This document shows, one piece after another, positions 38,364 through 64,000 of a DNA stretch of 64,000 nucleotides. This DNA comes from an uncultured Acidobacteriota bacterium (GTDB lineage Bacteria; Acidobacteriota; UBA6911). The notes under the pieces are model-generated. The model ran no database searches. It had not been told where the DNA came from and saw only the letters and a program-made list of their open reading frames with translations. A program made the translations under genes and the position numbers. Location of the stretch: the NCBI GenBank assembly GCA_963809485.1, contig CAWEJX010000020.1:320001-384000 (forward strand), in the 5' to 3' direction. The stretch's first letter is position 1, and the number at the start of each line of letters is the position of its first letter.

Positions 38364-38389
38364 GCATTCCTCAGCCTGGATGAAAAGCC

Positions 38390-42999: not shown

Positions 43000-43208
43000 T
43001 GAAACCTCCATCCAATGGTAGATATGGCGCATCAATAATGCCGACTTACGCCGACACTCGCTGAGGAACACTGAAAAATCCTTAAAAGTTTGGAGTCAAT
43101 ATATGTCGGATTTTTCGGTGTTCATCAGCATTAAAAGGCCCGTCTCGGACTGATGCATCCGGATTTCATCCGAAGGGTCTCCAGAACCGTGATCTTGCTT
43201 ATCCCGCA

Positions 43209-44819: not shown

Positions 44820-45001
44820 TCCCGTTACCATCCCGGCCAATGGGATTACACCATTATGAAATGCACGGCTGTTCTCCGGTGCCCGCCATTCTGAACCCAA
44901 ATTGCCTGCTTGATGCAGGCAACCGCCCAATTACGGCGCCGTGCAAATACAAAACACGCCAGTCCATGAGGTTCGCCCCAGGGAAATTAGTTCGGTCACC
45001 G

Positions 45002-46225: not shown

Positions 46226-46822
46226 CTATCCGCCGGCCGCAGCAGACTGCTGTCCCGACCCCACTAATCCGCCGCCGGGGGTTGAGAGCCCGCATCCAAG
46301 CGCGCAAATTTTTTTGCGGCGCAGCCTGATTCGATAGTCCCCCGTTCGTTGATTCGTCTGCAGCACTTCGCGGCAATCACACGATTCCAATATATCGCGC
46401 AACCTATGGATTGCCTGTCTAAGCGCCCCTTTGGTATATTTCCTCTCCAGGGATGCCTGCATGTAAGCAATTATTTTGCCGGTGCTTTTATAGGGCACAT
46501 AGGGATCATTTTCGTCGTTCGGACCTGCCTCGCCTTCCTCCGCGGCAAGACAGAGAGCCAGCCATCCCAAGACCGGTGGCACGACGAACGGATCCTTTTC
46601 CTCGATCCCTAGAGTTGCGTTCCCGTCCGAGTCCATCGAAACATCGAACCGGCAAACCTGTGAGCGCTGCAAGCGTGGCTTGATGGGAATAAATTCTGTG
46701 GAAATTCCACCATTGACCAGCAAATATTCCAATTTCTCCATGGTTCCAGTGACTATGTCCTGATGGGTCAATGCCTTTCTGAACATATGCCTTACTCTTT
46801 CCTTTTTTGCCTTCTCTTTCAT
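46226..46822 (-). CDS. Hypothetical protein, possible C-terminal winged-helix (OmpR-like) DNA-binding domain
   Basis: ORF co-oriented with the M50 gene; C-terminal ALRQAIHRLRDIL...LQT....YRI resembles wHTH termini; start uncertain. Confidence 0.45.
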   Translation of the reverse strand: MKEKAKKERVRHMFRKALTHQDIVTGTMEKLEYLLVNGGISTEFIPIKPRLQRSQVCRFDVSMDSDGNATLGIEEKDPFVVPPVLGWLALCLAAEEGEAGPNDENDPYVPYKSTGKIIAYMQASLERKYTKGALRQAIHRLRDILESCDCREVLQTNQRTGDYRIRLRRKKICALGCGLSTPGGGLVGSGQQSAAAGG

Positions 46823-47483
46823 TGTCTTTGCCTTTCTCTGGCCGTCCGCAGCCTGCCCCACACCTCCCCGAAGGTGTAGGCCGGCGCCCCCTCGACACGG
46901 TTTCGCTTCAAAAACACAAGGCGGAAAAATCGGCGGAAGATAGAAATGTGGGATAGCGGATCCATTTTCTGTTACCATGAGGCCGAAATATGAAAAGCAA
47001 CCGGAGTGATAAGGCGGAAACACCACCGCCGATGGTGTCCATCTGCTGGTCCGGGAAACGGCCTCGCGGCTATCCATGTGGGCCCCTCACAGTTTGACCT
47101 GATCCGACTTCCGTGCTACCCTCTATTCATGCATGGTCTGTTTGCAATGGCAAGCGCCGCGGCATTGTCTGAAAAGCAAATTTGCTCAGTTATCGTGCTG
47201 TTTACAGTAAGTGTTTTGGCGGTTGCACACTTTGGAGTTTGATGGTTCATTCTGTTGCCCCCTCAGGCTCACGGTATCGCATTCTGGCAGCAGGTCTTAG
47301 TGCCCTCGGACCTGAAGATGCGGCTTGCAGATCAACCGGCTCGATCGCATATCTCGGTCGCGCCGTTATGCGCAGGCTGGACTCAAAGCAACGCGCGAAG
47401 AGGCGACTGATTCTTACGGTTCAAGACTCCGCGCATCTTGCACGATTTAAATGAAATGTCCATATAGGGGAGGTTCCAATCTC

Positions 47484-48591: not shown

Positions 48592-48653
48592 CATGCTGTC
48601 GGAATACTGAGATGTTGCTGTTTCGAAAGAAGCCGGGGCTGCAGGCACAATTT

Positions 48654-50330
48654 TCAGAACGGGACATCATCGGGTGGGATAGTTGCCGGGTCCACCGCCT
48701 GGAAAAGATCCGATTCCAGTATCCTGTGGACCCGGCTGAGGCGCCGCAACTCCAGCAACCCGGGATCCCGTCTCCATCCCGCCTCCTCTTTCGTAAAATC
48801 GCGCCATTTCTCCTCGGCGGCAAAAGGATCGGAAAGGTCCAGGACACGCTTGCTGCGACCGTCCCAGATCCCCCGCCAATCACAATGTATGCGTCCGCCC
48901 TGACCGGCATTCCGGCGCACAAATTCGCCCCGCAGCCTTGCGCGCCCAAAAGAGGGAGGATGGGCCATGGCAGACCGTATTTCCCGGCTGGTAATGCGGC
49001 GATGGGATAAAACCCCCGCTCTGTCCAAGGCCGCAAAAATGCCTTTACTGCCCAGTTGGGAAAAACGCATGTCGATCTCGAACAGTTCCCCCCTGAGATC
49101 CACAAAGCGGGCAAAATCGCCCCAGTTCAACCCCATGTCGGCAAGATACGGCGAGATGATCTTCACCTCGTTCTTTACCGGGCTGTCGGGGCCCAACACC
49201 AGTTCAGCCGTGACAGGCATTGCATGGAATTCAGTGGCGGTCAACGCTCCCCTGAGCCAGTTCATGACGCGGTTCCAGTGCGGCAGCGATTCCCAGGCCA
49301 TGCCGCGGCGCCGGGCCTGGTCCCTGAACATGGAATGCTTGACTGCCCAGTCCAGGGTTGTATCGAGAGCTCCGGGATCTCGTTCCAGTTGATCCAGGAT
49401 GCGGCGCCATTCGGCGCACACGCTCTCCGCCCAATCCGGCATGAAGCTGCCGCCCAGGCTGGTTTCCGCCTGGCGAAGGTAGTGGCGCTGGATTTCGACG
49501 GCAGTGGCAGACTTGCCGTTGTTAAGCGCTGCAGCGGCGGTGCACTCAGGATCCGCCGAAAAAGCCCGCATGGCGCTCAACGGAAATTTCAGCTGAACTC
49601 CTTCCGTCGGACAGGCATCCGCTTCAATCATGGCGACGACCAGCGAGGTGGCGCCGATTTTTAAAAGACTTGACACCTGCGAGCACAGGCTCTCGCCGCA
49701 CAAAATGTGCAGTCGGCTGCAACCCTCGCGGGCCAGTGTCTCATTCTTGGAATGAAAGATGCCCCGGCCGCGCGTGGATTCGTCCGACATAATCCTCTCC
49801 AGATGAGCCACTCGCGGTGAAAGGCTGAAGGCGAGTCCTTCGGAAAGCGGATTGAAGCCGCCCGCTCCCGTGTAGACGACTCTCGAAACCAGGTGCGGGA
49901 TTATCCCGGCGGAGATCGCCGAGGGATTCATCCACGTCAAATACGATTCATGGCAGCCCCAGCTCGACTCGGTCCCGCCGTAATCGACATTCGTGCGGAA
50001 AAGCTGAATTTCGCTGATCTCCGGGAAACGGTTTTCCAGGGCATCAATGATTTTGCGGAGAATGGCCTCTCCCGCTGCTACGTGGATTACGGCCTCCAGG
50101 GGGTTCGCACATTCAGGAGTGGCAAACTCCGGGTGCAGGCCGGAATCCACATAGAAGCGGGACCCGTTTTGCAGGAACATACCATTGCCGAAATCCCGGA
50201 TATGAGGCATCTGTTCCCGGGCAACCCGAAGGAGGGTCTGGACCAGGATATGCCGGTTGAGGCTCTTCCCCTTCCGGGATACGGCCGAGATCGCGTACTC
50301 GGTCTCGACGCCCATCAAACGCTCGCGCAC
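48654..50330 (-). CDS. pafA: Pup-ligase (PafA)-like protein, copy 2 (directly downstream of the Pup-like gene)
   Basis: RLMGVETEY, FLQNGSRFYVD..HPEFATPEC, WGCHESY, RLHILCGE, LDWAVK, PP..GRA..RG, LDLSDPF. Confidence 0.9.
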   Translation of the reverse strand: MRERLMGVETEYAISAVSRKGKSLNRHILVQTLLRVAREQMPHIRDFGNGMFLQNGSRFYVDSGLHPEFATPECANPLEAVIHVAAGEAILRKIIDALENRFPEISEIQLFRTNVDYGGTESSWGCHESYLTWMNPSAISAGIIPHLVSRVVYTGAGGFNPLSEGLAFSLSPRVAHLERIMSDESTRGRGIFHSKNETLAREGCSRLHILCGESLCSQVSSLLKIGATSLVVAMIEADACPTEGVQLKFPLSAMRAFSADPECTAAAALNNGKSATAVEIQRHYLRQAETSLGGSFMPDWAESVCAEWRRILDQLERDPGALDTTLDWAVKHSMFRDQARRRGMAWESLPHWNRVMNWLRGALTATEFHAMPVTAELVLGPDSPVKNEVKIISPYLADMGLNWGDFARFVDLRGELFEIDMRFSQLGSKGIFAALDRAGVLSHRRITSREIRSAMAHPPSFGRARLRGEFVRRNAGQGGRIHCDWRGIWDGRSKRVLDLSDPFAAEEKWRDFTKEEAGWRRDPGLLELRRLSRVHRILESDLFQAVDPATIPPDDVPF

Positions 50331-50332
50331 GC

Positions 50333-50533
50333 TTACTGCCCGCCCTCCTGCCTGTTTGCAGACAGAAAAGCCTCGGAATCTCCCGACAAAGCACGCCGGA
50401 TAGCCTCATCCGCGGCCGCCAGCAGGTCCGAACCCGCCTGCCTCTGATCCGAAAGGCTTTGATTCGAAGACGCCGTCCCCGGCGATTCGTGTTCGCTTCT
50501 ACGCCCTTCCCTGTTCCTCTCACGCGGTTCCAT
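50333..50533 (-). CDS. pup: Pup-like modifier (66 aa, C-terminal GGQ)
   Basis: Disordered N-terminus; C-terminal LLAAADEAIRRALSGDSEAFLSANRQEGGQ follows the Pup pattern; sits between Dop-like and PafA-like genes; GGAG RBS. Confidence 0.85.
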   Translation of the reverse strand: MEPRERNREGRRSEHESPGTASSNQSLSDQRQAGSDLLAAADEAIRRALSGDSEAFLSANRQEGGQ

Positions 50534-50639
50534 AATCCTCTCCTGAATTGAAATTGTTTTAATTGAGTGCGGCTCCCCGGAGCCGTCCGATGAATGTTAA
50601 AAAATCCTTGTCCGGCGCATACCCGAATGCTCGCCCCGT

Positions 50640-52278
50640 TCACATGATTTGCCCGGAAGGCAGCGAGCAGTCCTCGTCCCTGCGTTCGCCCGCCGAATCG
50701 TCAGCCGGATTCGAAGCCAGGCATTCCAGGATATCTTCCAGTGCGGATTCCTCGCGGAACACGTGGCCCACCGCCTCCTTGGTAAAGCCGGTGGGATCCG
50801 ACATATCCAGCTCCGCGTAGCGCGACCAGTTCCCCTTCCGGCGCGTCTTAATTCGAATGGAATCCCAATCCAGCGAATCCAGGGATTCCGGCAAAACGCG
50901 CCGGAGGATCATGGCTCTAGTCCAGGCCCGTGTGTCTTCGGGGGGATTGTGAACAAACCAGTCGATCCGCGATTCATCCACGATCCTCTCCATAAAGCCG
51001 TTTTGCGCATAGGCCCAGAACAGTCCCTCGGATGGATCCAGGCTGGAATAAATATGATCCAGGTGCTTGATCTGAGGCGATCTCCAGTTAAGACGGGGCT
51101 GGCTCTCCAGGACTCTCTTGAGAATCGTCATCTTCAGCACCCAATCCAGCCGCCGGGCCAGCGCGGGAAAATCCCGGGCGCGGAGCTTATCCAGCGTATC
51201 CGCCCATAGCGTCAAAATCTCTCCCGCTCTTGGGACCCACCGGGAACAGTCCGTGGAATCCATGAAGCGCTTGGCTTCGTCCAGAAACAGGAACTGGAGC
51301 TCCACCGCCGTCAGGCGCTGCCCGGACGCCATTTGTGCCTTTGCGCGAAGGGAGGGATCGTGGCTCCATGAGACAACGGCTTCCAAGGGATCGTCCAGAA
51401 GAAGGTTCGGGTTCATCCGGCCGTGCTCGAGCATGCACAGGATGATCTGAGTCACTCCCACCCGGAGAAGGTTTGCCGTCATAAGCGTGGTGTTGTCGAA
51501 AAATATGACATGAAGCCGTGCCATCCGTTCCGCAACGGTCTCCGCCGGAGTCCCGTTTGCGGGCGGATCCGCATAAAGCCTGATCCCGTCCGTTTACCAA
51601 AGGGCGATTGAAGGTTGTCTGAACGCCCGTGAGCTGCTCAAAAAAATCGGCCCGCTGAGATATCTGAAAGTCGGAATGCGGCATTCCATTCTCGCTGCCT
51701 GCTTTCCCAAGGCCGGTGAAGATGATGCTCGAAACCTGGTAGGCAGCCAGATACAGCATGTAGTGGAGCTTGCGGTTGAAGATATTCTCCCACGTCTCCC
51801 TCGTTATCAGGAAATTCAGGTGGCTTCCATAGGAGTGGCCGAGCCCGTCACTGTTGTTGACCAGAGCCTGGATCCTGACGTTGCGGCCGAGCCTGGCGTT
51901 TGCGGACAGAAGCGCGCCCTGCGCGATTCGCAGCATTGCATTCCAGCAGGCGACGTGATCGAAGGCGCTGATGACCTCGGGAGTGCAGAGCTCCAGATGG
52001 TTCAGATCGATATAAGCGCAACCCCCGTTGCCCTGCAGATATTTCCGTCCCCAGTCCTGGGACAGATGGCCGGATCCGCTCTGTTCCTCCGAACTGCGGC
52101 AGTGAGAGCTCCAGCACCCATCCTCGTCCGTTCTCCCGAAGGTTGAAGGGGAAATCCCCTGGATTTCCCTCAGAAGCATGCGCGATGCGATGTCACAGGT
52201 GCCGCCCCATTTGTCAACGCCAAGGACAAAATTTCCCAATTCAATATCCGTTCCGCAAAGCTTGGGTAAGGGATCCAT
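50640..52278 (-). CDS. dop: Dop-like Pup deamidase/depupylase, frameshifted at ~51525-51565
   Basis: KLCGTDIELG, loop insertion, NGG.AYID..H.E..TPEV, NNSDG.G.SYGSH, QISQRADFFE..GVQTT..R; RLHVIFFD, LDW..K, PPEDTRAW continue in a second frame. Confidence 0.8.
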
Positions 52279-52355
52279 CTTTTTCACCTCTTTCTGCCCA
52301 TCAGGCATACGGCTGTGTTCTTTGCCTCCCTGTATCCACGATTGATCCACAAAGA

Positions 52356-54047
52356 TCAGGCGGCGTTTATATATCGGTGGGACCGGGGGACCTTTTTCCT
52401 GACCGGTTCGACGCGGACCGCGTCAATATCCTGCGGCAGATCCTGCAGGTGGTTTCGGCAGTTTGCCGGCGTGAGCGTTTTGGCCATGGCCTCAAATTCG
52501 TCCGCAATCGCATGAAGGATGTCTTCCAGTCGCAATCCCGGAGACCCCGCCTCTATGTCGCGCAGGCACGCCCGCTCGAGCGCCACGCGGGAAATGTTTG
52601 CAATGCTGGCGCCATTCATCAGGTCGCCGGCTTTGACTTTGCGCTGTTTCCCGTCACGGAAAGTTATCTGGGCAAGCTCGCTGTCGCCGTTGGGCGCATA
52701 GATCCGCGAGACCGCCGAGTCGATAATGAACTGTCTCGCTTCCCCCGCGCCGCAACCGTTCTCGGCGTATGGAACATCCTCGGGAAGATGTTTCGCGAAT
52801 ATCTCGGAGGCAGCTTTCATATTGGGTCTGGGAACCTCGATGATGACATCGCCCAGGCGGCCGGGACGCAACAGGCCGGGATCGAGAACGTCCCGGCGAT
52901 TGGTGCTGGCGATCACCAGGATGTTGCCCCGGGATTCCAGCCCGTCCAGTTCGGCCATGAATGCAGTCAGCACCTTGTCGTCAACCCGCGTCAGGGAGTT
53001 CCCGCGCGCGGTCCCGATCGAATCAATTTCATCGTAGAAGGCCACCACGGGAGTTTCGGGTTCCGCGTCGCCCGCCTCGCGCAGGGCCCGGAAATTTTCG
53101 CGCAGGATTCTCTCGGACTCGCCCCACCACATGCTGCAGAACTCCAGGGGCTTGAAGTGCGCGAAGCGCGATCTGCCGGACTTCGACAGTCCCGCCATCC
53201 AGTTTGCCATGGCGCGCGCAAGCATGGTTTTGCCCGTGCCGGGAGGCCCGGTGAGCAGCACCGAACGCGCGCGCGGGAGCCTGTATTTGCCCGCGGTCTC
53301 GGCATTGAAGAACTGGATACGGATGGGCCGCTGCATCTGCTCGATCTGCCGGTCCAGGCCCCCAATGTGTTCAAAGGTCTCATCCGGAGTACGTTCCAGG
53401 AAAAGCGCGTCGGCCGTCATGCGGTCGATCTTTTCCAGAGCCATGCAGGCGCTCCGCTCCCATCGGATCTGATCTCCGCTTTTCAGACCCTGGTCCTTCA
53501 GCGCACCTCCGACATCCACAACAATTTCCTCGTCGCGCTCTTTCAGCACGATCCGGCCATCCGGCGTGTGGCGATCGTAGATTGCGGTGTGACCGCAGCG
53601 AAGCATGCCGAAAGGCGAACGGTCCACGATGAAATTCATTTCGTTGGAGAGCAGGACCTCGTCGCCGGGCTGCAGAGAGTGCACATCCAGCTCGTCCGAG
53701 CAGGCGACAATCCTTCTTGAATTGCCACACATCACCATTGCCGACATGCCGTGCCCGGCCTCTTTGACTTCCAGGAATATCGCTGGGTAAAAAGGCGGGC
53801 TGGTCAGGCGCCGGTGTATGGCTTTCAATTCATTTTGCGCGGTCACGGCGTCCTGAAGGTTGGACCGGAGCATGCAGATCCTGTCGACCAGTTGGCGGTC
53901 AAGATGGCGCGACGTGTCGACGGAGCGGCCGCGAATCAGTTCAAGCATCTGGACCTTTTGATCCGTCGTCGGGCTGCCTTCGCCAAAAGCAGTCAGCTGA
54001 TCGAACAGACCGGCGAATTCGGATGTTTCTCTCGGGGGTCTTGGCAT
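52356..54047 (-). CDS. arc: ARC/Mpa-type proteasome-associated AAA+ ATPase
   Basis: N-terminal coiled coil ending LTSPP, two OB-like repeats, ETFEHIGGLD.QI, Walker A GPPGTGKT, WWGESER, Walker B AFYDE, STNR.D.LDP.LLRPGRL, NGA.I.NI. Confidence 0.9.
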   Translation of the reverse strand: MPRPPRETSEFAGLFDQLTAFGEGSPTTDQKVQMLELIRGRSVDTSRHLDRQLVDRICMLRSNLQDAVTAQNELKAIHRRLTSPPFYPAIFLEVKEAGHGMSAMVMCGNSRRIVACSDELDVHSLQPGDEVLLSNEMNFIVDRSPFGMLRCGHTAIYDRHTPDGRIVLKERDEEIVVDVGGALKDQGLKSGDQIRWERSACMALEKIDRMTADALFLERTPDETFEHIGGLDRQIEQMQRPIRIQFFNAETAGKYRLPRARSVLLTGPPGTGKTMLARAMANWMAGLSKSGRSRFAHFKPLEFCSMWWGESERILRENFRALREAGDAEPETPVVAFYDEIDSIGTARGNSLTRVDDKVLTAFMAELDGLESRGNILVIASTNRRDVLDPGLLRPGRLGDVIIEVPRPNMKAASEIFAKHLPEDVPYAENGCGAGEARQFIIDSAVSRIYAPNGDSELAQITFRDGKQRKVKAGDLMNGASIANISRVALERACLRDIEAGSPGLRLEDILHAIADEFEAMAKTLTPANCRNHLQDLPQDIDAVRVEPVRKKVPRSHRYINAA

Positions 54048-54050
54048 TTG

Positions 54051-55211
54051 TCATTCCTCCTGTGGATGCAAATTCATGGTGCCGGCAGTCAGGCTGCCCG
54101 GCCGTACCGAAACCGTGTCACCGGATCCTTTCAGATCATCGCAACAGATAGCGTCTGCCGCTCCCGGAAATTCATTGAGTCCCTGAGGCGCAGAATCCAG
54201 GACGTAAAAACCTCGCGCTTCGAGCATCCCCTTGTTCCAGCCAAAAACAGCTATTCTTGGATCGCCGTAGGCGACATCGCTCACAACCATGGCAATACAC
54301 CATGCCCGCGAAAAAACAGCCCGATGCAGGGCCTGGTCCTGTTCACTGAGAAAGCCTCGCGTCAACTGGCACACTTTTTGCTTCTCGGGCGGGCATTCCC
54401 TGCAGTTCCAGTGCTTTACGGGATGACTGTGCCACCACCCCAGAAGCATTTCTTCCCTGCGGCGCAACCGCAGGGCGCTCCGGACGGCTGTCCAGGATTC
54501 GGATGTGAACCTGAGCTTCGACTGTTCCCCGACCGTGCCCGTAGCCGGCACCTGAGCCGTGACCTCCGCGAAAACATCCGCCGAGGCCGAGTCGTGGTGC
54601 AGATGCCCGATTAAAAAGCCCCCCGTTTCGATCTCTTGAGCCTGTTGTGTGATCAGGGAAACTTCAGTCAGGACGCGGCCGGGAATAAAAATGGGGAGGA
54701 GTTCGGTATCGGCGCAGTCCCGGGCGGCTGCGAAGCGCATAAATTGAGTGAAAACGCTTTCCCGAACGGGAATATCCGGATCAATATCCCGGATCTCCAA
54801 ACCGCCGCCGCTTCCCTCCCCTGTCCTGGCTTCTTCAGGATAGGCCGTAACAAGGTAAAAGAAGCGATCGTTCAGACGCATCTTCCCGGCCTCCACGAGG
54901 AGGGCTGCGGCCCGGGTGGCCAGTCCCTTAAAATATGTCGCCGCAAAATCGCAGAAGAAACCCTCCGTCTCATCCGGATCCAGCTGAATCCTAAATCCCT
55001 GCAGATAGGGCCGGGACAACCTGAGGTGCCATAAAGGCATTACCGAGGCAGGCCTATCGTAGTCGCCGAAGTTGAGACGCCTGCTCCGGACGCTGGACAG
55101 GCGGGTCCATTCGAGGGCGGGAGCAAAATCCACATCCACTGCGGCCTGACCGAGCGGCGAGCCCGTTTCGGAGTGGATTTCAATAATGTATCGATGCAGG
55201 TCTTCGGGCAT
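54051..55211 (-). CDS. JAB/MPN+ (JAMM) metalloprotease with extra N-terminal domain
   Basis: ETGGFLIG, LLGWWHSHP...FLSEQD..LH..F; Cys-rich insert between HSH and S..D. Confidence 0.85.
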   Translation of the reverse strand: MPEDLHRYIIEIHSETGSPLGQAAVDVDFAPALEWTRLSSVRSRRLNFGDYDRPASVMPLWHLRLSRPYLQGFRIQLDPDETEGFFCDFAATYFKGLATRAAALLVEAGKMRLNDRFFYLVTAYPEEARTGEGSGGGLEIRDIDPDIPVRESVFTQFMRFAAARDCADTELLPIFIPGRVLTEVSLITQQAQEIETGGFLIGHLHHDSASADVFAEVTAQVPATGTVGEQSKLRFTSESWTAVRSALRLRRREEMLLGWWHSHPVKHWNCRECPPEKQKVCQLTRGFLSEQDQALHRAVFSRAWCIAMVVSDVAYGDPRIAVFGWNKGMLEARGFYVLDSAPQGLNEFPGAADAICCDDLKGSGDTVSVRPGSLTAGTMNLHPQEE

Positions 55212-55332
55212 GGGACGCACCTTTCCCGGTTCTTCGATCAAGGTGAAAGATGAAGCGAACCTTTTTCAGATCTTCGAGCCTCAGGATCCGATGACCGACG
55301 CCGAGGCCCGAAGATTTGACGCTGCAAATGAT

Positions 55333-55617
55333 TTAGCCCGCATCGATGTTCGGCTGCAGCACCACGCGGTCGCCGGTTTTCACGGCATCCCCAACCTTTT
55401 CCCAACTCTGGAGGTGACGCCCCTCCCGCTCGAGTACAGCCTGATAGGCAACGGGCCGCCCCTCAGAATCGTTCTGCGGCAAGTTCATTGCCGCCAGAAG
55501 CGAGTCCGTCAGTTCCCTCACGGTGATCTCGACCCCTATATTGCTTACTCGACGCATCTTCTGCTGTGAAACATCCATAGCATCGATCGTCAAACCCACT
55601 GCTCCTGCACTTCCCAT
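55333..55617 (-). CDS. Ubiquitin-like (beta-grasp, YukD/EsaB-like) protein ending ...NIDAG
   Basis: 94 aa; TVRELTDSL...LP...Y...L...V...GD.V.L.P pattern; terminal Gly; located among E1/E2/JAB genes; AGGAG RBS. Confidence 0.75.
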   Translation of the reverse strand: MGSAGAVGLTIDAMDVSQQKMRRVSNIGVEITVRELTDSLLAAMNLPQNDSEGRPVAYQAVLEREGRHLQSWEKVGDAVKTGDRVVLQPNIDAG

Positions 55618-55653
55618 GGCTATCTCCTTTTTTGATTGTTTATGGATTCACTT

Positions 55654-56547
55654 CTATGGAACACATGCATGGCCGTTTGCCATCCGATAAATTTCCGCAA
55701 CCTGTTTGTTCTCAAAACACTGCGCTTCCCGGCCGAAAAGGTTCGCGGAAACCGACAATGCCGCTAAAGCGTGGTCAAGCTCAGAGGGGCTCGGCGCCGC
55801 AAACCGGACTTCAAACCGGACGACAGCGGTTGACTCCGTCTCCACAACCGAGGCACGGACCATCCGGACGGCTCCGCATACCGCCAGCAGGAAGCTTCCC
55901 AGGGCCGCACGCTGCGCATCGGACAGGGATTCGAACCGGGCTGCCTCCAGGCGCGAAACGACCTCGCCGTCCTGGTTCTCCATCAGCGCCTGGGCGAAGC
56001 TGCCCTGGACTTCCAGATCCACCGCGAATCTCGACGGCGACCGCTCAACAAAAGGCCAGCTCATCCCCTTGAGCTGTTCTGCAAGATTCAGGGCATCCTC
56101 GGACCCCGGATGCGTTTTCCCGGGCATCCGCACCCCCGCCGGGTCTGCGGATTGCGGGAAACCTCGAAGCCCTTCCCAGGCTGCCCCGAGGCCTTCCAGT
56201 GTTTCGGCAATTCGCCGCGGAAGCTTGGCATAACTGTCCTCGGGGTCCAGGGGCAAGTCTGCGCGAAGCTGCCGGGCACCGGGACCGGGGCTCTGTACAA
56301 ACTTGCAGAGGCCTGCCAGGTCCGCGTTGCGGCTTAAAAGGCTCCACTCATCTGCAGGGAGGATTGTGTCAGCCAGGGGCAGGCCCAGTACGAGCCAATC
56401 ATCCTCGACAGCGGCAAAGGCCCCGGCCCGTCCCCTGCTTTTAATGTTAAGGTCCCATCGGCCGCAGCCCGACTGCCTGGCGCCGGATGCCGATTGAGCC
56501 AACCATCCTGAAATCATTTTGTCTCGTTCAACAATCGGGATTGTCAT
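55654..56547 (-). CDS. Hypothetical protein, possibly tandem YbjN/CesT-like chaperone-fold domains
   Basis: 297 aa; ATGA overlap with the E2 stop; two similar-length alpha/beta halves (EDDWLVL...LLSRNA.L....F; L..FLL..C....MVRA). Confidence 0.45.
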   Translation of the reverse strand: MTIPIVERDKMISGWLAQSASGARQSGCGRWDLNIKSRGRAGAFAAVEDDWLVLGLPLADTILPADEWSLLSRNADLAGLCKFVQSPGPGARQLRADLPLDPEDSYAKLPRRIAETLEGLGAAWEGLRGFPQSADPAGVRMPGKTHPGSEDALNLAEQLKGMSWPFVERSPSRFAVDLEVQGSFAQALMENQDGEVVSRLEAARFESLSDAQRAALGSFLLAVCGAVRMVRASVVETESTAVVRFEVRFAAPSPSELDHALAALSVSANLFGREAQCFENKQVAEIYRMANGHACVP

Positions 56548-57059
56548 GTCTCATCCACCTTATCGATGACCTCGAATTCCAGATCGAGGGCCCTTCGCTT
56601 CAAAGGGCGGTTGTCTATGGGAAACCGGTGCCGGTTTTCTCTGGCCCAGGCGCTGGCCTGCAGGTTTAGCGAATCGTGCATGGCAACGGTCTGATAGGCC
56701 ACGATCCTGAATACGCGGAAGATGATATCGACCAGCGGAGTGGCGGGAACGAGACGCCCGATGCATATCAACGGAGCCATGATATTGGGGTGATAGACAT
56801 TGGACGGTTGAAGCCATGTCACCACCTCAAACGGATTTGCCCGCCGCAGATAGTCGCTGGGGAACCATATGCCGACCCTGAACAAGTCAGCCGTCGTCAC
56901 CCCTTCCCCGGCCTTGTAGATGAGCCCCTTGCAGTGCAGGTCCACAGCGAAAGCCTGAGGAGCAACGGGATGGATTTCCATAAGACCGCTTGCCCGCGCC
57001 AGGGCTTTCCCCTCTTCAGCCTGGCGCATCAGGAATGCCGCATATATTTTGTCGTTCAT
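56544..57059 (-). CDS. E2 ubiquitin-conjugating (UBC-fold) protein
   Basis: F.V.I.FPSDY, VYHPNI....ICIG (HPN plus catalytic Cys), SLN..A..W. Confidence 0.85.
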   Translation of the reverse strand: MNDKIYAAFLMRQAEEGKALARASGLMEIHPVAPQAFAVDLHCKGLIYKAGEGVTTADLFRVGIWFPSDYLRRANPFEVVTWLQPSNVYHPNIMAPLICIGRLVPATPLVDIIFRVFRIVAYQTVAMHDSLNLQASAWARENRHRFPIDNRPLKRRALDLEFEVIDKVDET

Positions 57060-57149
57060 CTTCTACTCCGCCCCAAAAGAGTCGACGCCCCGTAGTGGAT
57101 CATATTTCTGCGTCGTTCCGGCGTCTCTGCCGTCGATAACATCCCGCGC

Positions 57150-58289
57150 TCATCTCAAATCCATCTCCCCACAAGATTTATTTTTCACAATATTTTTTGG
57201 ATCACCGGCGGTCACTGTAATTTCAAAGTGGCGCTCGCATTCAGGGCTGCCGATGGTGAACACTTCGCCGTTGCGCAGGCCGAGACTCGCAAGAGACTGG
57301 GAGAGAACCCGCCTGGGCAAATGAGTCATGAGTTTCTCCGTCAGGTCCCAGCCGCTGGCCAGCATGGTTCCCCCGCAAATCGGGCACTGCTTTGCTTTCC
57401 GGGTCAGGGATTCCCGAAGCCTCAAACCATGTTTTGCGTGGCCGCAGTTCGTGCAGGTCCGTCTTTTCACAAAAGACTTCCCTTCAACTCGCAGCCAGGA
57501 TTCGTCGCGCTGCTGCCCCGAACCGATCCGTCCCAGGGCATCCTGCAGCGTAATTTCTTCCGGCCCGCACTCCAGCTTTTCGATCTCCCAGATCCCGTGA
57601 TCGAACCGGCAGCGGGGATTGCGGCGATAGGATGTTTGATAGCATTTGTGGTGCATGCCGTCGATCAGGACCTGACGCCCGAAGGGGACAAGGTCCCAAT
57701 GACCATCGATGCAATTTTGCGCGGCGATTATCTGCAGGCCGGCCGCGAGCGCGCCCAGTCCCGAAGGGGCATTGGTAGGCTTTGGCGATCCCCCTCCCGC
57801 ATCACAGGGGTAGACGGTCTCCAGCGCGAGGTAGTCCGGATCCGACCAGGCGCATTCGTAGCACGGACGGTCTTCACCCGGGAGATAGGCATTGATCCGC
57901 GCAAGCCGTCCCTCCGGATCGACCCCGGCGTCGATCCACGGGACTTTGCCCAGGCGCCAGACAGCCTGCCCCAGCCGCATTCTTGCCAGTTTGGTATCCA
58001 GCCCGCTCATCATCAGGTCGCACCACAGAAATCCAAGGGGAAGGTTCTCGACAAGGTCTACGACCGCCTTAACAGTCAGGTCCGGCCTGATGCGGCGGAG
58101 CCTCTCTGCCTGGACACGGCTTTTCGGCTTGCCGATGTCCGCGGCATTGATATCCTGGCTCGCAAGGTTCTTCCTCTCATAGGACTGCCCGTCTACCAGG
58201 GTTACCTTATGGATTCCGGGAAGCCTGGCAAGATGAGGGATCAGGTGAGACCCGATGTTGCCGCATCCCACAACCATCACATGAGACAT
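57150..58289 (-). CDS. E1/ThiF-family activating enzyme with C-terminal Zn-ribbon/UFD-like extension
   Basis: VVGCGNIGS, LVD, IGKPK, LD...R, PWIDAG, PCYEC, putative catalytic YPC, RRNPRC..DH, CTNC...CPIC. Confidence 0.9.
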   Translation of the reverse strand: MSHVMVVGCGNIGSHLIPHLARLPGIHKVTLVDGQSYERKNLASQDINAADIGKPKSRVQAERLRRIRPDLTVKAVVDLVENLPLGFLWCDLMMSGLDTKLARMRLGQAVWRLGKVPWIDAGVDPEGRLARINAYLPGEDRPCYECAWSDPDYLALETVYPCDAGGGSPKPTNAPSGLGALAAGLQIIAAQNCIDGHWDLVPFGRQVLIDGMHHKCYQTSYRRNPRCRFDHGIWEIEKLECGPEEITLQDALGRIGSGQQRDESWLRVEGKSFVKRRTCTNCGHAKHGLRLRESLTRKAKQCPICGGTMLASGWDLTEKLMTHLPRRVLSQSLASLGLRNGEVFTIGSPECERHFEITVTAGDPKNIVKNKSCGEMDLR

Positions 58290-58290
58290 C

Positions 58291-58818
58291 TCATATCTCC
58301 TCGGGCGCCCAGCGGTAGCCCGCATCCATGTCTGTGACCTGCGGACACAACGCGCAAGTTTCCGCATAGGTCCAGCATGGGAAATCCTCCGACTGGTGAT
58401 ACCCCACGCCGCAGGCGGGGCACTTCACCGACGGATGTCCGGGGTTCATCGCCTGTTTGCATCGTGGACAGTATGAATCCGTGGAGGACCCCGCGAAGGA
58501 TTCCAGGACCGCCAGGCTCTCGGTTGAGTAGTAAAAAAGCCCGGCGCCGGCGACCCGTATCTCATCGCGATCGCGCAGCGACCTGATCCCGGGGGTCAGT
58601 CGGATGCCGTTGATCCGGACGTCGGCCTGGGCGCCTGCAATAAGAATCCACGACTCGCCGGATGGGCCGCCGGGGCGTACCAGCATGATTTCCTTTTCCC
58701 AGGCGGGACTCAGCCCGGACGGATGCGACAGCGCCTTCCGTCGCTGCAGGCTGAAGAGTGCGCAGTTCAGCGGAAGGACCGCCCACTGAGAATCTTCGCG
58801 AACCCAGATATGAGCCAT
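58291..58818 (-). CDS. FHA-like domain plus prokaryotic RING finger (putative E3)
   Basis: VRINGIRL....L.D.DEI (FHA-like C-terminal strands); CPRC-x12-CPAC...YH-x6-CW-x5-CALC; GGAGG RBS. Confidence 0.75.
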   Translation of the reverse strand: MAHIWVREDSQWAVLPLNCALFSLQRRKALSHPSGLSPAWEKEIMLVRPGGPSGESWILIAGAQADVRINGIRLTPGIRSLRDRDEIRVAGAGLFYYSTESLAVLESFAGSSTDSYCPRCKQAMNPGHPSVKCPACGVGYHQSEDFPCWTYAETCALCPQVTDMDAGYRWAPEEI

Positions 58819-59265: not shown

Positions 59266-59314
59266 CATACGGTGGAATTGCCGCCGAATGCCCACAATCC
59301 CATGCCGGGATCCG

Positions 59315-63153: not shown

Positions 63154-63244
63154 GGCTGTACCTCTTTGTTAAATGCATTGAGTCGCACTCCCCTCAATAA
63201 TCAGCATTGATCAGCACTGTCGTCATCCCACACCACCGTCGCCA

Positions 63245-63442
63245 AGTCAGGCACCTCCGGCAAAGCCGGAGGCAATATTTGAACCGCTCTGAGCCGTTGG
63301 AGGAGTTATGCCGATCTTGAACGCTGACATACGCGAGCAAAAGCCGATGAGGCGCTTCCGATCCCCGCCGGACAAATCGGCGTTTGTCAGCGTTTTTTGT
63401 CAGCGTATCTCAGCGTTTCAAAATACGGAGCTGTCAAACTCT
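63245..63442. repeat. Dispersed non-coding element, family B copy 2
   Basis: Direct repeat of 40842-41028; its right end overlaps the stop codon of PafA copy 3. Confidence 0.85.
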
Positions 63443-64000
63443 GTGCGGCTGCCCGCCTGCCGCAACCTCCTCCATGATAGAATCAAAATGCGCATTGCGG
63501 TCCGATTCCGCCCTGGTTTCCGCTGACACCCACCTTTCAGCCGCACAGAACGGATCCGAGAGATCGATATAGCGCCGGTTTTCCGGATCCCGGACCGATT
63601 GCCAGGAACAGGTTACCCCCGGATGATTGTGCAGCTTTTGTACAGCCTTTCCGCGAATTGCCGCGCGGCCGCTGGCCGGGGGCTCGGTCATTGCGGTTTC
63701 AATCTCACTTGGGGCAAGGATCCTGTGCTCCAGCATCCCAGTCTGATCGAGCTGCTGATATAAGCCGCGGGGGCCTATCTGGGCGAGGCGCAGGTCCACT
63801 TCCAGCAGTTTATGACGCATTGAATCCGGAGTCTGGAGATCGCCCCAGGTCATGCCGGTCCTGCGCAATTCCGCAGTCAGCATAGCCGCGGTTTCCAGGA
63901 CAGGACTTCCGGGGCCGATGAGGAATTTCAAGTCCGGCAAATGATTGACATAGGAAGTTCCTTCAAGGGCTTCGTATAACCGGTGCTCAATCCCATTTGC
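63434..64000 (-). CDS. PafA-like protein, copy 3 (C-terminal part; 5' end beyond the window)
   Basis: Frame open to the window edge; IGPGSPV, LLEVDLR..QIG..G....LD..G.L.H, PPASGRAAIRG, CSW, IDLSDPF match copies 1 and 2. Confidence 0.85.
   Translation of the reverse strand, partial: ANGIEHRLYEALEGTSYVNHLPDLKFLIGPGSPVLETAAMLTAELRRTGMTWGDLQTPDSMRHKLLEVDLRLAQIGPRGLYQQLDQTGMLEHRILAPSEIETAMTEPPASGRAAIRGKAVQKLHNHPGVTCSWQSVRDPENRRYIDLSDPFCAAERWVSAETRAESDRNAHFDSIMEEVAAGGQPHRV

What the first reader, a model, noticed from the sequence alone, without database searches (positions are those of the whole stretch)
48654..58818. Single operon joining a complete ubiquitin-like cascade (RING-E1-E2-Ubl-JAB) to a complete pupylation pathway (ARC-Dop-Pup-PafA)
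Seen: ten co-oriented minus-strand genes in the order FHA-RING, E1, E2, unknown, Ubl, JAB, ARC ATPase, Dop-like, Pup-like, PafA-like. Several junctions are tight (RING/E1 1 bp, E2/unknown ATGA overlap, JAB/ARC 3 bp, Pup/PafA 2 bp), and the JAB/ARC junction physically links the two halves. Established: ubiquitination (E1 adenylation, E2 thioester, JAMM removal) and pupylation (glutamine-synthetase-fold PafA/Dop acting on a GG[Q/E] tag, read by ARC/Mpa) are chemically unrelated tagging systems that are normally encoded separately. Known bacterial E1-E2-Ubl-JAB loci (Bil/Bub/CBASS type) are not, to my knowledge, built around a Pup module. Inference: a hybrid two-tag system, e.g. Ubl marks a target and Pup delivers the Ubl or the conjugate to the unfoldase, in quality control or antiphage defence.
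Basis: partly seen in the sequence, partly recalled or inferred. Interest (0 to 1): 0.96.

Follow-up and report, generated by a model that had tools for sequence, protein, structure and literature searches.

The report
Ubiquitin-like and Pup tagging cassette
A soil bacterium carries one conserved ten-gene cassette that joins a eukaryote-style ubiquitin-like tagging cascade to the bacterial Pup tagging pathway around a single proteasome-type unfolding motor but without a proteasome core; it is real and widespread, was noted once in print, and has never been tested.

Summary
Window 48654-58818 (minus strand) encodes RING, E1, E2, a tandem chaperone-like protein, a Ubl, JAB, ARC/Mpa-type ATPase, Dop-like, Pup-like (ends GGQ) and PafA-like genes. 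Two corrections are needed. The Dop-like gene carries a one-base insertion near 51544 that close relatives lack. The FHA label on the RING protein is unproven.

The linkage is not chance. In 80 related loci from at least seven phyla, ARC follows JAB in 75 of 75 and Dop follows in 68 of 68. The strict ten-gene order was recovered in 36 of 54. Where the cassette splits (Blastocatellia), it splits as RING-E1 versus E2...PafA, not as Ubl half versus Pup half.

Carrier genomes lack a 20S proteasome: 0 of 12 tested pass the 20S-beta cut-off, and one comes close.

My best reading is that two tags converge on one ARC unfoldase. JAB would act like Rpn11 and Dop as depupylase, with unfolding or hand-over to an unknown protease as the outcome.

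It is not unprecedented. Kaur et al. 2020 (eLife) state in one sentence that a Ubl-conjugation system is coupled to a Pup system in some Thermofonsia and Planctomycetes. I found no experimental work.

The parts
58291..58818 (-). RING-type E3 candidate, 175 aa. The C-terminal part is a binuclear Zn finger. The N-terminal ~105 aa is a conserved domain of uncertain fold (FHA-like?).
   Evidence: Prok-RING_1 at E 6.6e-6, below the gathering score. C117, C120, C133, C136, C148, C155 and C158 are invariant and H141 is near-invariant in 34 orthologs. Weak PDB profile hits to RING-H2 proteins and PHD fingers. FHA is not detected; hhalign gives 29% probability over 34 columns; protein-language-model leads score 0.85-0.87.
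57150..58289 (-). E1 (ThiF-type adenylating enzyme), 379 aa from the ATG at 58289; the ORF is open up to 58367. A C-terminal Zn ribbon is followed by ~90 aa of unassigned sequence.
   Evidence: ThiF at 2.5e-23. Best PDB relatives are MoeB, ThiF and SAE2. In 60 orthologs the GxGxxG motif, D98, R103, the Zn site C143/C146/C227/H231, the crossover-region C162, and C279/C282/C302/C305 are invariant or nearly so.
56544..57059 (-). E2 (UBC fold), 171 aa, with HPN (90-92) and Cys99.
   Evidence: Invariant H90, P91 and C99 and near-invariant N92 in 36 sequences. Of 26 PDB profile hits at E<1, 25 are E2 enzymes. AF2 pLDDT 92.7; the listed top-50 Foldseek PDB matches are all E2s at probability 1.0.
55654..56547 (-). 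Unknown 297-aa protein made of two tandem YbjN / type III secretion chaperone-like alpha/beta domains. It is a candidate adaptor for an unfolded polypeptide segment.
   Evidence: No Pfam, NCBIfam or PADLOC hit. AF2 pLDDT 89, pTM 0.88. Foldseek single-domain matches to YbjN 6vu7, SicP 1jyo and ExsC 3kxy at probability 1.0 and TMt 0.5-0.64. The family has 985 representatives at E<=1e-30 in a 1.84-billion-protein library.
55333..55617 (-). Ubiquitin-like modifier, 94 aa, ending ...LQPNIDAG.
   Evidence: A93 and G94 are invariant in 34 of 34 orthologs. Thirteen end at the Gly and 21 carry 1-13 further residues, which is a precursor pattern. Weak beta-grasp signals: YukD E 0.077, MoaD 2m19 E 0.11, and YukD / TmoB language-model leads.
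54051..55241 (-). JAB/JAMM metallopeptidase with a conserved ~170-aa N-terminal domain of unknown fold and a Cys-rich insert.
   Evidence: Prok-JAB at 1.1e-4 and JAB at 4.1e-4. E205, H271, H273, S299, D302 and C280, C283, C291 are invariant in 26 sequences. The family profile gets 0 PDB hits at E<=0.01.
52356..54047 (-). ARC/Mpa-type AAA+ unfoldase, 563 aa, starting 3 nt after the JAB stop codon. It has a conserved C-terminal tail ...HRY[LR]xxA and no GQYL.
   Evidence: AAA, Prot_ATP_ID_OB_C and Prot_ATP_ID_OB_N. Best PDB relatives are Mpa/ARC 5kwa and 7px9 over residues 54-520. TIGR03689 pup_AAA scores 303.6 bits, below the 504.75 cut-off. C-termini are listed.
50640..52350 (-). Dop-like deamidase/depupylase gene, broken in this assembly by one extra base near 51544.
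   Evidence: Two ORFs match Pup_ligase positions 69-217 and 225-440. The extra C is absent from L010 and L011 and from a 95-99%-alike metagenome contig. The intact ortholog L010:12946-14592 scores 196.8 bits against Dop structures and 93.5 against PafA, and 266.9 on the NCBIfam Dop model against 203.2 on PafA. It falls on the Dop side of the tree.
50333..50533 (-). Pup-like tag, 66 aa, lysine-free, ending GGQ.
   Evidence: All 59 detected orthologs end GGQ (39), GGE (17) or SGE (3), and are 53-69 aa long. No Pfam hit. Zero lysines in 36 of 59.
48654..50330 (-). PafA-like Pup ligase, 558 aa, starting 2 nt after the Pup stop codon.
   Evidence: Pup_ligase at 9.4e-91. NCBIfam PafA 243.9 bits against Dop 235.0, both below their cut-offs. 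It groups with the PafA-position genes of 20S-linked loci at SH-aLRT 99. GxExE motif.
46226..47077 (-). Possible accessory or regulator gene ('U283'; the likely product is ~198 aa from 46822).
   Evidence: Homologs lie within 10 kb of the cluster in 16 of 80 loci, in 9 of them directly upstream of RING, and beside the separated RING-E1 pair in L106. No family hit. The role is an inference.
41089..44930 (-). Extra module: PafA-like paralog PL2 (43209-44930) followed by the unknown 660-aa protein U660 (41089-43071).
   Evidence: Pup_ligase hit. PL2 is 47% identical to the in-cluster PafA-like protein. U660 is homologous to U630 at 30% identity, E 8e-69.
61261..64000 (-). Extra module: PafA-like paralog PL3 (from 63434, running off the window to C20:385059) followed by the unknown 630-aa protein U630 (61261-63153).
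   Evidence: (PL3: PafA model 242.6 bits). The same pair occurs in L010.

Best explanation
The ten genes form one co-inherited cassette. It makes two different covalent protein tags and feeds both to one proteasome-type unfoldase that works without a 20S core.

Shown here: every catalytic part of a ubiquitin-type cascade is present.
- An E1 with an adenylation site and an invariant crossover-region Cys.
- A UBC-fold E2 with HPN and Cys.
- An eight-ligand RING-like finger.
- A Ubl with an invariant terminal Ala-Gly that is often followed by a removable tail.
- An intact JAMM peptidase.

Shown here: so is every part of a Pup pathway.
- A Pup ending GG[Q/E].
- A Dop-side enzyme and a PafA-side enzyme.
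- An Mpa/ARC-type ATPase.

Inferred mechanism:
1. JAB trims the Ubl precursor. E1, E2 and RING then attach the Ubl to lysines of chosen substrates.
2. Dop deamidates Pup-GGQ and PafA-type ligases attach Pup. Three ligase paralogs in this genome may widen the substrate range.
3. ARC binds Pup through its coiled coil and threads the substrate.
4. JAB, encoded directly upstream of ARC, strips the Ubl at the motor as Rpn11 does on the 26S proteasome. Dop recycles Pup.
5. The tandem chaperone-like protein holds an unfolded segment of a substrate or a tag.
6. Because no 20S is present, the outcome is unfolding or extraction, or hand-over to an unidentified partner. That partner would dock on ARC's conserved C-terminal HRY[LR]xxA tail.

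The biological role (stress proteostasis or defence against invaders) is open.
For: Obligate linkage across 80 loci:
- ARC follows JAB in 75 of 75.
- Dop follows in 68 of 68.
- The Ubl is present in 77 of 77 and E2 in 68 of 68.
- The JAB-to-ARC gap is 50 nt or less in 70 of 80 loci by my ORF calls.

In three Blastocatellia genomes the cassette is split as RING-E1 on one contig and E2-unknown-Ubl-JAB-ARC-Dop-Pup-PafA on another. The Ubl and Pup parts therefore stay together.

The halves diverge in step. Pairwise distances of E1, E2 or JAB against ARC give r 0.82-0.88, and a Mantel test gave 0 of 999 permutations as high (54 loci).

The cassette's Dop and ligase genes each form one clade (SH-aLRT 100). 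They sit on the Dop and PafA sides of a 99%-supported split with the genes of canonical 20S-linked loci.

Carriers have no 20S:
- The own genome has only HslV, next to HslU.
- In a 151-genome phylum sample, 20S-beta passes its cut-off only in the 6 genomes with canonical Pup ligases. It does not pass in either of the 2 cassette carriers.
- In 10 further carriers, 0 pass the cut-off.

A 20S-less Pup system has a named precedent in the tools' own controls. Corynebacterium glutamicum matches Pup_ligase but is not among the ten controls matching PF00227.

ARC's C-terminal tail is conserved: 57 of 70 orthologs end AA or VA after an HRY motif.

The Ubl precursor tails (21 of 34) call for a processing peptidase.
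Against: - No binding, expression or conjugation data exist for any part.
- JAB could be only a precursor-processing enzyme with no contact to ARC.
- The N-terminal domains of JAB and RING have no assigned fold.
- The window's Dop copy is frameshifted. If that is real and not an assembly error, a GGQ-ending Pup could not be activated in this strain.
- The closest relative, L010, has lost the first ~470 codons of the in-cluster PafA, so single parts are dispensable or backed up by paralogs.
- All Pup-arm proteins score below NCBIfam equivalog cut-offs.
- The Dop clade has GxDxE where canonical enzymes have GxExE (63 of 65), so its chemistry may differ.
- One carrier, G163, has a near-cut-off 20S-beta match of 174.3 bits elsewhere in its genome.
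- The divergence correlation could partly reflect shared species history.
Confidence: 0.45

Rival explanations
1. Tag-on-tag relay. One tag is conjugated to the other, for example Pup is ligated to a lysine of substrate-bound Ubl. A Ubl mark is thereby converted into an ARC delivery signal.
For: The two pathways are never found apart. The Ubl has one fairly conserved lysine in a conserved DVSGQK motif: K20 is K in 26 of 34 orthologs and Q19 is invariant. ARC-type ATPases are known to read Pup, not beta-grasp tags (established knowledge of Mpa; recalled).
Against: K20 is R in 5 of 34 orthologs and M, H or N in 3, so a fixed acceptor lysine is not conserved. Pup is lysine-free in 36 of 59 orthologs, which excludes Ubl-on-Pup at a lysine in most carriers. 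Three ligase paralogs in one genome suggest many substrates rather than one fixed acceptor.
Confidence: 0.12
2. Two parallel, mechanistically independent tagging systems travel and are expressed together because they serve one physiological programme. The Ubl and JAB never meet ARC, Dop or PafA.
For: Each half is biochemically self-sufficient on paper. Nothing computed here shows a physical contact between the halves.
Against: When the cassette splits, it does not split at the Ubl/Pup boundary. JAB and ARC are adjacent in 75 of 75 loci, mostly with gaps of 50 nt or less. The cassette's Pup enzymes and ARC are a distinct lineage. In the 151-genome sample the only other Pup_ligase carriers were six canonical 20S-linked genomes and one lone divergent gene.
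Confidence: 0.18
3. The cassette's role is defence against phages or other invaders. The Ubl cascade marks foreign proteins and the Pup-ARC arm unfolds or clears them. This concerns role rather than chemistry and can coexist with the best explanation.
For: The distribution is patchy and looks like horizontal transfer. Only 2 of 151 genomes of the phylum sample carry it, and a same-family relative lacks it. Yet the same gene order occurs in at least seven phyla. A TIR+Sel1 gene lies next to the cluster at 60015-60923. Kaur et al. 2020 place related tri-ligase Ubl systems in conflict systems (passages seen). Bil and type II CBASS show that bacterial E1/E2/JAB sets can be antiviral (passages from PMC10557695).
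Against: No PADLOC model matches beyond generic E1, JAB and AAA domains. The other window neighbours are cell-division genes. No effector such as a nuclease, pore or NADase is part of the conserved set. No phage data exist.
Confidence: 0.3
4. Chance juxtaposition, a chimeric contig or a decaying remnant.
For: The genome is a 21-contig assembly with 7.32% estimated contamination. The Dop-like gene is frameshifted here, and L010 has a truncated PafA.
Against: The same order recurs in independent assemblies from many studies and phyla. Both halves of the split Dop remain 94% and 98% identical in protein to L010. The single-base difference is private to this assembly.
Confidence: 0.02

Closest known systems
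[quoted passage not shown]
   Same: It combines an E1/E2/RING/JAB Ubl system with a Pup system in one neighbourhood. My related loci include Planctomycetota (L040, L077) and Anaerolineae (L078), so it is probably the same cassette.
   Different: The paper gives one sentence. The passages I saw contain no anatomy, counts or mechanism. Its supplements and figure were not seen, so identity with this cassette is likely but unverified. Most loci found here are from Acidobacteriota (56 of 80) and Gemmatimonadota (10 of 80).
Prokaryotic RING-E1-E2-JAB-YukD-like Ubl operons (Burroughs, Iyer, Aravind 2011, Mol Biosyst). The paper is not held; its abstract is recalled from memory.
   Same: As I recall the abstract, it describes E2s with the eukaryote-like oxyanion-hole residues, an E1 with a C-terminal UFD, YukD-like Ubls predicted to be conjugated, and RING E3s. 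All of this fits the upstream six genes here.
   Different: I could not check whether that paper already shows the ARC-Dop-Pup-PafA extension. The E1 UFD was not tested here.
Actinobacterial Pup-proteasome system (Mpa/ARC-Dop-Pup-PrcB-PrcA-PafA; Iyer, Burroughs, Aravind 2008, PMC2588565, section 5 part 1 read)
   Same: The order ARC-Dop-Pup-...-PafA is the same. Pup is 50-90 aa and ends G[EQ], PafA and Dop are paralogs, and Pup lies beside a ligase gene.
   Different: There are no 20S genes. ARC lacks a GQYL-type end (the motif is recalled). The enzymes score below equivalog cut-offs. Dop has GxDxE. The system is fused to a Ubl cascade. The same phylum also holds canonical 20S-linked Pup loci in 6 of 151 genomes.
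20S-less pupylation of Corynebacterium glutamicum. Tool controls. Its reported role in unfolding ferritin by ARC is recalled from memory, not read.
   Same: Pup, ligase and ARC are present without a proteasome core, which implies unfolding or remodelling rather than 20S degradation.
   Different: No Ubl cascade is linked there. It is a different lineage of enzymes.
Eukaryotic 26S regulatory particle (Rpn11 JAMM deubiquitinase on the Rpt AAA+ ring) and the Caldiarchaeum Ub-E1-E2-RING-Rpn11 operon (cited in passages of PMC10557695)
   Same: A JAMM peptidase is paired with a proteasomal-type AAA+ ATPase, together with Ub-like, E1, E2 and RING parts.
   Different: Physical JAB-ARC coupling is only inferred here. 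The JAB family has no detectable PDB relative by sequence. There is no 20S, and a second, non-ubiquitin tag is present.
Bil (BilABCD), type II CBASS Cap2/Cap3 and Bub operons (PMC10557695, PMC11601596, PMC11601603; passages seen)
   Same: Bacterial E1, E2, Ubl and JAB sets. The E1 and JAB here give weak hits to Cap2 and Cap3 models.
   Different: Those lack RING, ARC, Pup, Dop and PafA. In the three papers, 'Pup' and 'pupylation' occurred 0 times. No PADLOC system model fits this cassette.

Membership tests
Pupylation system | Pup: a small protein of about 50-90 aa ending in G-[E/Q] | tested here: met
   The window protein is 66 aa and ends GGQ. All 59 detected orthologs end GGQ, GGE or SGE and are 53-69 aa long. 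The Pfam scan found no family for it.
Pupylation system | PafA-type ligase (Pup_ligase family, GhExE motif) | tested here: met
   Pup_ligase at 9.4e-91. GxExE in 42 of 44 cassette ligases. PafA side of the tree at SH-aLRT 99. NCBIfam PafA scores 243.9 bits, below the equivalog cut-off of 551.3, so this is a divergent subfamily and not an equivalog.
Pupylation system | Dop deamidase/depupylase paralog | tested here: met
   The intact ortholog L010:12946-14592 scores 196.8 bits against Dop structures and 93.5 against PafA. NCBIfam Dop scores 266.9 bits (cut-off 492.3) against PafA 203.2. It is on the Dop side of the tree. The window copy is frameshifted. The motif is GxDxE in 63 of 65.
Pupylation system | Mpa/ARC ATPase: coiled coil, two OB domains, AAA+ module | tested here: met
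   Pfam AAA, Prot_ATP_ID_OB_C and Prot_ATP_ID_OB_N. Mpa/ARC structures are the best PDB hits over residues 54-520. TIGR03689 scores 303.6 bits, below the 504.75 cut-off.
Pupylation system (Pup-proteasome form) | A 20S proteasome core in the genome and a proteasome-docking C-terminus on the ATPase | tested here: not met
   The only PF00227 hit in the own genome is HslV, beside HslU. TIGR03690 passes its cut-off in 0 of 12 cassette carriers tested; G163 scores 174.3 bits, just below the cut-off. ARC ends ...HRYINAA. The GQYL motif of Mpa is recalled from memory.
E1-E2-E3 ubiquitin-like conjugation (prokaryotic tri-ligase type) | E1: ThiF-fold adenylation domain with a conserved cysteine for the thioester | tested here: met
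   ThiF at 2.5e-23. GxGxxG, D98, R103 and C162 are invariant in 60 orthologs. That C162 is the catalytic cysteine is inferred from its position.
E1-E2-E3 ubiquitin-like conjugation (prokaryotic tri-ligase type) | E2: UBC fold with HPN and a catalytic Cys | tested here: met
   No Pfam UQ_con or Prok-E2 hit.
E1-E2-E3 ubiquitin-like conjugation (prokaryotic tri-ligase type) | RING: a cross-brace binuclear finger with eight Zn ligands | tested here: inconclusive
   Seven invariant Cys plus a near-invariant His with RING-like spacing. Prok-RING_1 scores 26.4 bits, below the 29.1 gathering score. Weak RING-H2 and PHD hits in the PDB.
E1-E2-E3 ubiquitin-like conjugation (prokaryotic tri-ligase type) | Ubl: beta-grasp fold with a C-terminal glycine exposed by processing | tested here: inconclusive
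   The terminal Ala-Gly is invariant and precursor tails occur in 21 of 34 orthologs, so that part is met. The fold rests only on weak signals: YukD E 0.077, MoaD E 0.11, and language-model leads.
E1-E2-E3 ubiquitin-like conjugation (prokaryotic tri-ligase type) | JAB/JAMM peptidase with E...HxH...S..D | tested here: met
   E205, H271, H273, S299 and D302 are invariant in 26 sequences. Prok-JAB at 1.1e-4.
   No Pfam FHA hit at E<=0.1. The own-genome PF00498 search found 4 other genes and not this one. hhalign against those 4 gives 29% probability over 34 columns. Language-model leads to FHA and FHA+RINGv clusters score 0.85-0.87.
Known anti-phage systems (PADLOC v2: CBASS type II and others; Bil by literature) | Proteins match system-specific models | tested here: not met
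   Only generic hits to E1-E2, JAB, TRIP13 and IetA models. The E2, the unknown protein, the Ubl, Dop and PafA have no hit.
Ubl-plus-Pup coupled system of Kaur et al. 2020 | A tri-ligase Ubl system and a Pup system in one neighbourhood, reported from Thermofonsia and Planctomycetes | tested here: met
   The coupling is shown. Loci come from Planctomycetota and Anaerolineae. Gene-by-gene identity with their operons could not be tested because their supplements and figures were not seen.

The most novel reading that the evidence does not exclude
The cassette builds a bacterial counterpart of the proteasome's regulatory particle without a core. An ARC ring would carry an Rpn11-like JAB and a Dop, and would read two chemically unrelated tags on the same substrates. 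A RING E3 and several PafA-type ligases would give combinatorial (AND/OR) control. The tandem chaperone-like protein and ARC's conserved C-terminal tail would link the ring to an unknown downstream partner. This would be the first natural system in which ubiquitin-type and Pup-type tagging are integrated. It would also be a new model for how Ub, E1-E2-E3, a JAMM peptidase and a proteasomal ATPase first came to work together.
Probability: 0.25. Interest if true: 0.88.

Novelty: new member of a known kind. Interest (0 to 1): 0.68.

Why it matters
Ubiquitin-type and Pup-type tagging are textbook examples of convergent, separate solutions. This cassette keeps them welded together across at least seven phyla and about a thousand sequence clusters of its signature protein. 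That means they do something jointly, and nobody has tested what.

Three open questions become directly testable:
- Whether a bacterial JAMM peptidase works on a proteasomal-type ATPase as Rpn11 does.
- What a Pup-ARC system does without a 20S core.
- Whether bacterial RING E3s are real ligases.

The hosts (Acidobacteriota, Gemmatimonadota, Verrucomicrobiota) are abundant soil and wetland bacteria with poorly known proteostasis and defence. The parts list, motif map and ortholog sets given here are enough to choose constructs for reconstitution.

Tried and rejected
1. Complex prediction of the unknown tandem-domain protein (A4) with Pup (A7) gave 'no answer', score 0.07 against a mark of 0.32. 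It counts neither for nor against binding.

2. Sequencing runs. No run holds more than 0.30 of the sampled words and no RNA holder is listed. Nothing can be said on expression or on co-transcription across JAB-ARC. The contigs laid from X1-X3 end near 51543-51557, so only one contig (from X4) spans the frameshift site.

3. The promoter/terminator scan of 48000-59600 found 0 promoter-like sites and 14 terminator-like sites, against 12.2 expected from shuffles. It is uninformative.

4. FHA tests were inconclusive.

5. The JAB family profile against the PDB gave 0 hits. The N-terminal JAB domain and the E1 C-terminal domain remain unassigned.

6. Lysine depletion of the enzymes is modest, at 2.1-5.0% K against a 4.3% background, and was not pursued.

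7. U630/U660 as a general component was rejected. Homologs occur in only 2 of 80 loci.

8. Literature. The only statement of a Ubl-Pup coupling I found is in PMC7159879. Burroughs 2011 (PMC5938088), Burroughs 2012 (PMC5881585) and Burroughs 2015 (PMC4678834) are not held and may describe this cassette. The part of PMC7203096 that holds its 'Pup' mentions lies beyond the stored text. Supplements were closed and were not requested. The supplements of PMC7159879 and PMC2588565 may list these operons.

Full report
**What is in the window.** Ten co-oriented minus-strand ORFs fill 48654-58818.
- Pfam assigns Prok-RING_1 (E 6.6e-6, below the gathering score), ThiF, Prok-JAB/JAB, AAA with both proteasomal-ATPase OB domains, and Pup_ligase to three ORFs.
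- The putative E2, the 297-aa 'unknown' and the Pup-like ORF have no Pfam family. The Ubl candidate touches YukD only at E 0.077.
JAB/ARC is 3 nt, Pup/PafA is 2 nt, E2/unknown overlaps by 4 nt, and RING/E1 is 1 nt if E1 starts at the ATG at 58289.

- The Dop-like gene is split between two frames. ORFs 51187-52350 and 50640-51524 match Pup_ligase profile positions 69-217 and 225-440.
  - Alignment with the 92-100%-identical relative L010, and with L011, shows a single extra C near window 51544.
  - L010 has one intact 548-codon ORF.
  - The only metagenome contig spanning the site (run X4, 95-99% alike) also lacks that base.
  - Both halves remain 94% and 98% identical to L010 in protein. The lesion is therefore an assembly error or a very recent strain mutation.
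- The genome holds three PafA-like genes plus the Dop-like gene within about 22 kb. The extra two are PL2 at 43209-44930 and PL3 from 63434 past the window end. Each is followed by a homologous unknown protein of 630-660 aa, 30% identical at E 8e-69.

**Identity of the weakly annotated parts.**
- *E2.* An alignment of 36 orthologs has invariant H90, P91 and C99 and near-invariant N92. Its profile hits 26 PDB sequences at E<1, of which 25 are E2 enzymes, with HPN and Cys aligned. The AF2 model (pLDDT 92.7) matches E2 structures only among the listed top-50 Foldseek hits.
- *Unknown protein.* The AF2 model (pLDDT 89, pTM 0.88) shows two tandem alpha/beta domains. Each matches YbjN and type III secretion chaperones such as SicP and ExsC at probability 1.0 and TMt 0.5-0.64. 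Those chaperones are dimers that hold extended polypeptides (established knowledge, recalled). A fused pseudo-dimer is a plausible holder of an unfolded segment. This is an inference.
- *Ubl.* In 34 orthologs the terminal Ala-Gly is invariant. Thirteen end there and 21 carry 1-13 further residues. This is the pattern of a processed, C-terminally conjugated modifier. The beta-grasp fold is supported only weakly.
- *E1.* Sixty orthologs keep the nucleotide-binding glycines, D98, R103, a ThiF/MoeB-like Zn site, an invariant Cys162 after the CxxC, and a C-terminal Zn ribbon. The nearest PDB relatives are MoeB, ThiF and SAE2.
- *JAB.* The JAMM residues are invariant. The family as a whole has no PDB relative by sequence.
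- *RING.* Seven invariant Cys and a near-invariant His.
- *FHA.* Not confirmed.

**The Pup arm.**
- All 59 detected Pup orthologs end GGQ (39), GGE (17) or SGE (3).
- ARC's best PDB relatives are Mpa/ARC over residues 54-520. Its best NCBIfam model is the Pup-system ATPase, at 303.6 bits against a cut-off of 504.75.
- The Dop-like protein scores twice as high against Dop as against PafA structures.
- The PafA-like paralogs lean slightly to the PafA model.
- I took five canonical loci from the same phylum, with the order ARC, Pup_ligase, 20S-beta, second Pup_ligase. A tree of 58 of the 119 candidate proteins, plus the two window paralogs, splits {24 cassette ligases + 5 PafA-position genes} from {24 cassette Dop + 5 Dop-position genes} at SH-aLRT 99. 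Each cassette group is one clade at 100.
- The labels of the canonical genes rest on gene position and score preference, not on experiments.
- The cassette Dop clade has GxDxE (63 of 65) where all the others have GxExE.

**Is the linkage conserved?** The JAB protein has at least 127 relatives among 90%-identity clusters. A profile-guided scan of one genome per species found 159 encoding stretches, and the best 80 were fetched with 10-kb flanks. tblastn with the window proteins, counted only where the flank was long enough, gives the following.

| Gene | Present / loci with enough flank |
|---|---|
| ARC (after JAB) | 75 of 75 |
| Dop | 68 of 68 |
| Ubl | 77 of 77 |
| E2 | 68 of 68 |
| Unknown | 65 of 70 |
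| E1 | 64 of 68 |
| RING | 62 of 65 |
| Pup | 58 of 66 |
| Ligase | 53 of 60 |
| Strict ten-gene order | 36 of 54 |

- The misses are mostly short or divergent genes, or a ligase placed nearby on the other strand.
- By record labels the loci are Acidobacteriota 56, Gemmatimonadota 10, Verrucomicrobiota 4, Planctomycetota 2, and one each of Latescibacterota, Binatota, Chloroflexota (Anaerolineae) and an Actinomycetota-labelled 6-kb contig. Four are unlabelled.
- Gaps are short by my ORF calls. JAB-to-ARC has a median of -11 nt and is 50 nt or less in 70 of 80 loci.
- Pairwise divergences of E1, E2 and JAB correlate with those of ARC as well as with each other (r 0.82-0.92). A Mantel test of E1 against ARC gave 0 of 999 permutations as high (54 loci).
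- In five Blastocatellia loci no E1 or RING lies in the flanks. In the three genomes searched, a RING-E1 pair of 45-51% identity sits on another contig, once with the U283-like gene. The cassette therefore breaks as RING-E1 versus E2...PafA, and never at the Ubl/Pup boundary.
- The signature unknown protein has 1852 representatives at E<=0.001 and 985 at E<=1e-30 among 1.84 billion 50%-identity representatives.

**Distribution and the missing 20S.**
- In an even sample of 151 genomes of the window's phylum, the JAB family occurs in 2: G000 and G081. G081 carries the full cluster.
- Pup_ligase occurs in 9 of the 151.
- 20S-beta passes its curated cut-off in exactly 6. These are the six genomes with high-scoring canonical Pup ligases, and the 20S gene lies beside those ligases.
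- These tallies include two unpublished genomes (G049, G024), which count as non-carriers.
- G000's only PF00227 hit is HslV, next to HslU.
- Ten more carriers from several phyla gave 0 matches over the cut-off. G163 has a 174.3-bit match on another contig and may own a separate proteasome. Completeness of these ten genomes is not known.
- ARC orthologs share a C-terminal ...HRY[LR]xxA tail. Fifty-seven of 70 end AA or VA.

**Mechanism.**
- The best-supported reading is convergence of two tags on one unfoldase, as set out under Best explanation.
- The parts and their obligate co-inheritance are shown. Every contact between parts is inferred.
- The relay model is weakened by lysine-free Pup (36 of 59) and by a non-invariant Ubl K20.
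- A defence role is compatible with the patchy, transfer-like distribution and a neighbouring TIR gene. It has no specific support, because PADLOC gives only generic hits.

**Comparison with what is known.**
- The upstream six genes match what I recall of the abstract of Burroughs et al. 2011. That paper is not held.
- The coupling to Pup is stated in one sentence of Kaur et al. 2020 (PMC7159879; passages seen).
- Iyer et al. 2008 (section 5 part 1 read) and Iyer et al. 2006 (passages) do not mention it in what I read.
- Ten full-text searches found no experimental study.

**Verdict.** This is another member, in Acidobacteriota, of an operon type already noted in print but uncharacterised. The anatomy worked out here appears to go beyond the accessible literature. 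It covers the 20S-less state, the Ubl precursor tails, the tandem chaperone-like protein, the ARC tail, the Dop GxDxE variant, the split point and the ligase paralogs. The cassette is a strong candidate for experimental work.

Noticed in passing
window ~51544 (Dop-like gene, 50640-52350, minus strand): A single extra C breaks the Dop-like reading frame in this assembly. L010, L011 and one metagenome contig lack it. Pup here ends GGQ, so a real Dop loss would block Pup activation.
   Followed up: yes
L010:14899-15167 (closest relative): In L010 the in-cluster PafA gene is reduced to its last ~88 codons. The sequence after Pup aligns to window 48921 onward, so about 470 codons are missing, while Dop is intact. 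Each of the two close relatives thus has one lesion in a different Pup enzyme gene.
   Followed up: partly
window 41089-44930 and 61261-64000 (continues to G000:C20:385059): There are two extra two-gene modules. Each is a PafA-like ligase (PL2, PL3) followed by a homologous unknown protein of 630-660 aa (U660, U630; 30% identity). Similar U6xx genes occur in only 2 of 80 related loci (L010, L044).
   Followed up: partly
window 46226-47077 (minus strand): An unannotated ~198-aa protein has homologs beside the cassette in 16 of 80 loci. Nine of them lie directly upstream of RING, and one lies next to the detached RING-E1 pair in L106. It may be the cassette's regulator. It has no family hit.
   Followed up: partly
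window 60015-60923 (plus strand): A TIR_2 plus Sel1-repeat protein lies just upstream of the cluster on the other strand. It gives weak hits to a TIR anti-phage model and to PADLOC PDC-S66.
   Followed up: no
cassette Dop orthologs in L010-L089: The first metal/ATP motif reads GxDxE in 63 of 65 cassette Dop proteins. It reads GxExE in 42 of 44 cassette ligases and in 10 of 10 canonical Dop/PafA genes of 20S-linked loci.
   Followed up: partly
ARC orthologs, C-termini (window 52356-52420): A conserved C-terminal tail ...RKVxxPHRY[LR]xxA ends AA or VA in 57 of 70 orthologs. This suggests a docking partner other than a 20S core.
   Followed up: partly
L014, L016, L020 with L106-L108 (Blastocatellia genomes G151-G153): The cassette is split into RING-E1 on one contig and E2-unknown-Ubl-JAB-ARC-Dop-Pup-PafA on another. 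In G151 the E1 match contains one in-frame TAG.
   Followed up: partly
L097-L101 (G012, G013, G047, G046, G031; same phylum as the window): Canonical Pup loci with ARC, Dop, 20S-beta and PafA exist in other families of the same phylum (6 of 151 genomes sampled). The phylum therefore holds both the classical Pup-proteasome and the 20S-less Ubl-Pup cassette.
   Followed up: partly
L024:9725-11020 and L036:6476-6934: In L024 the Ubl frame runs on for 431 codons into the JAB region, which is either a possible Ubl-JAB fusion or a missing stop. In L036 the Ubl ORF is 152 aa. Neither was checked further.
   Followed up: no
window 36447-40799 (plus strand): Cell-wall and division genes (PBP transpeptidase, FtsW/RodA family, FtsA-like) lie next to the PL2-U660 module. 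No link to the cassette is evident.
   Followed up: no
L096 (G020:C192:3975-5318): A lone, divergent Pup_ligase-like gene (481-aa frame, about 29% identical to the window PafA-like protein) has no cassette or 20S genes nearby.
   Followed up: no
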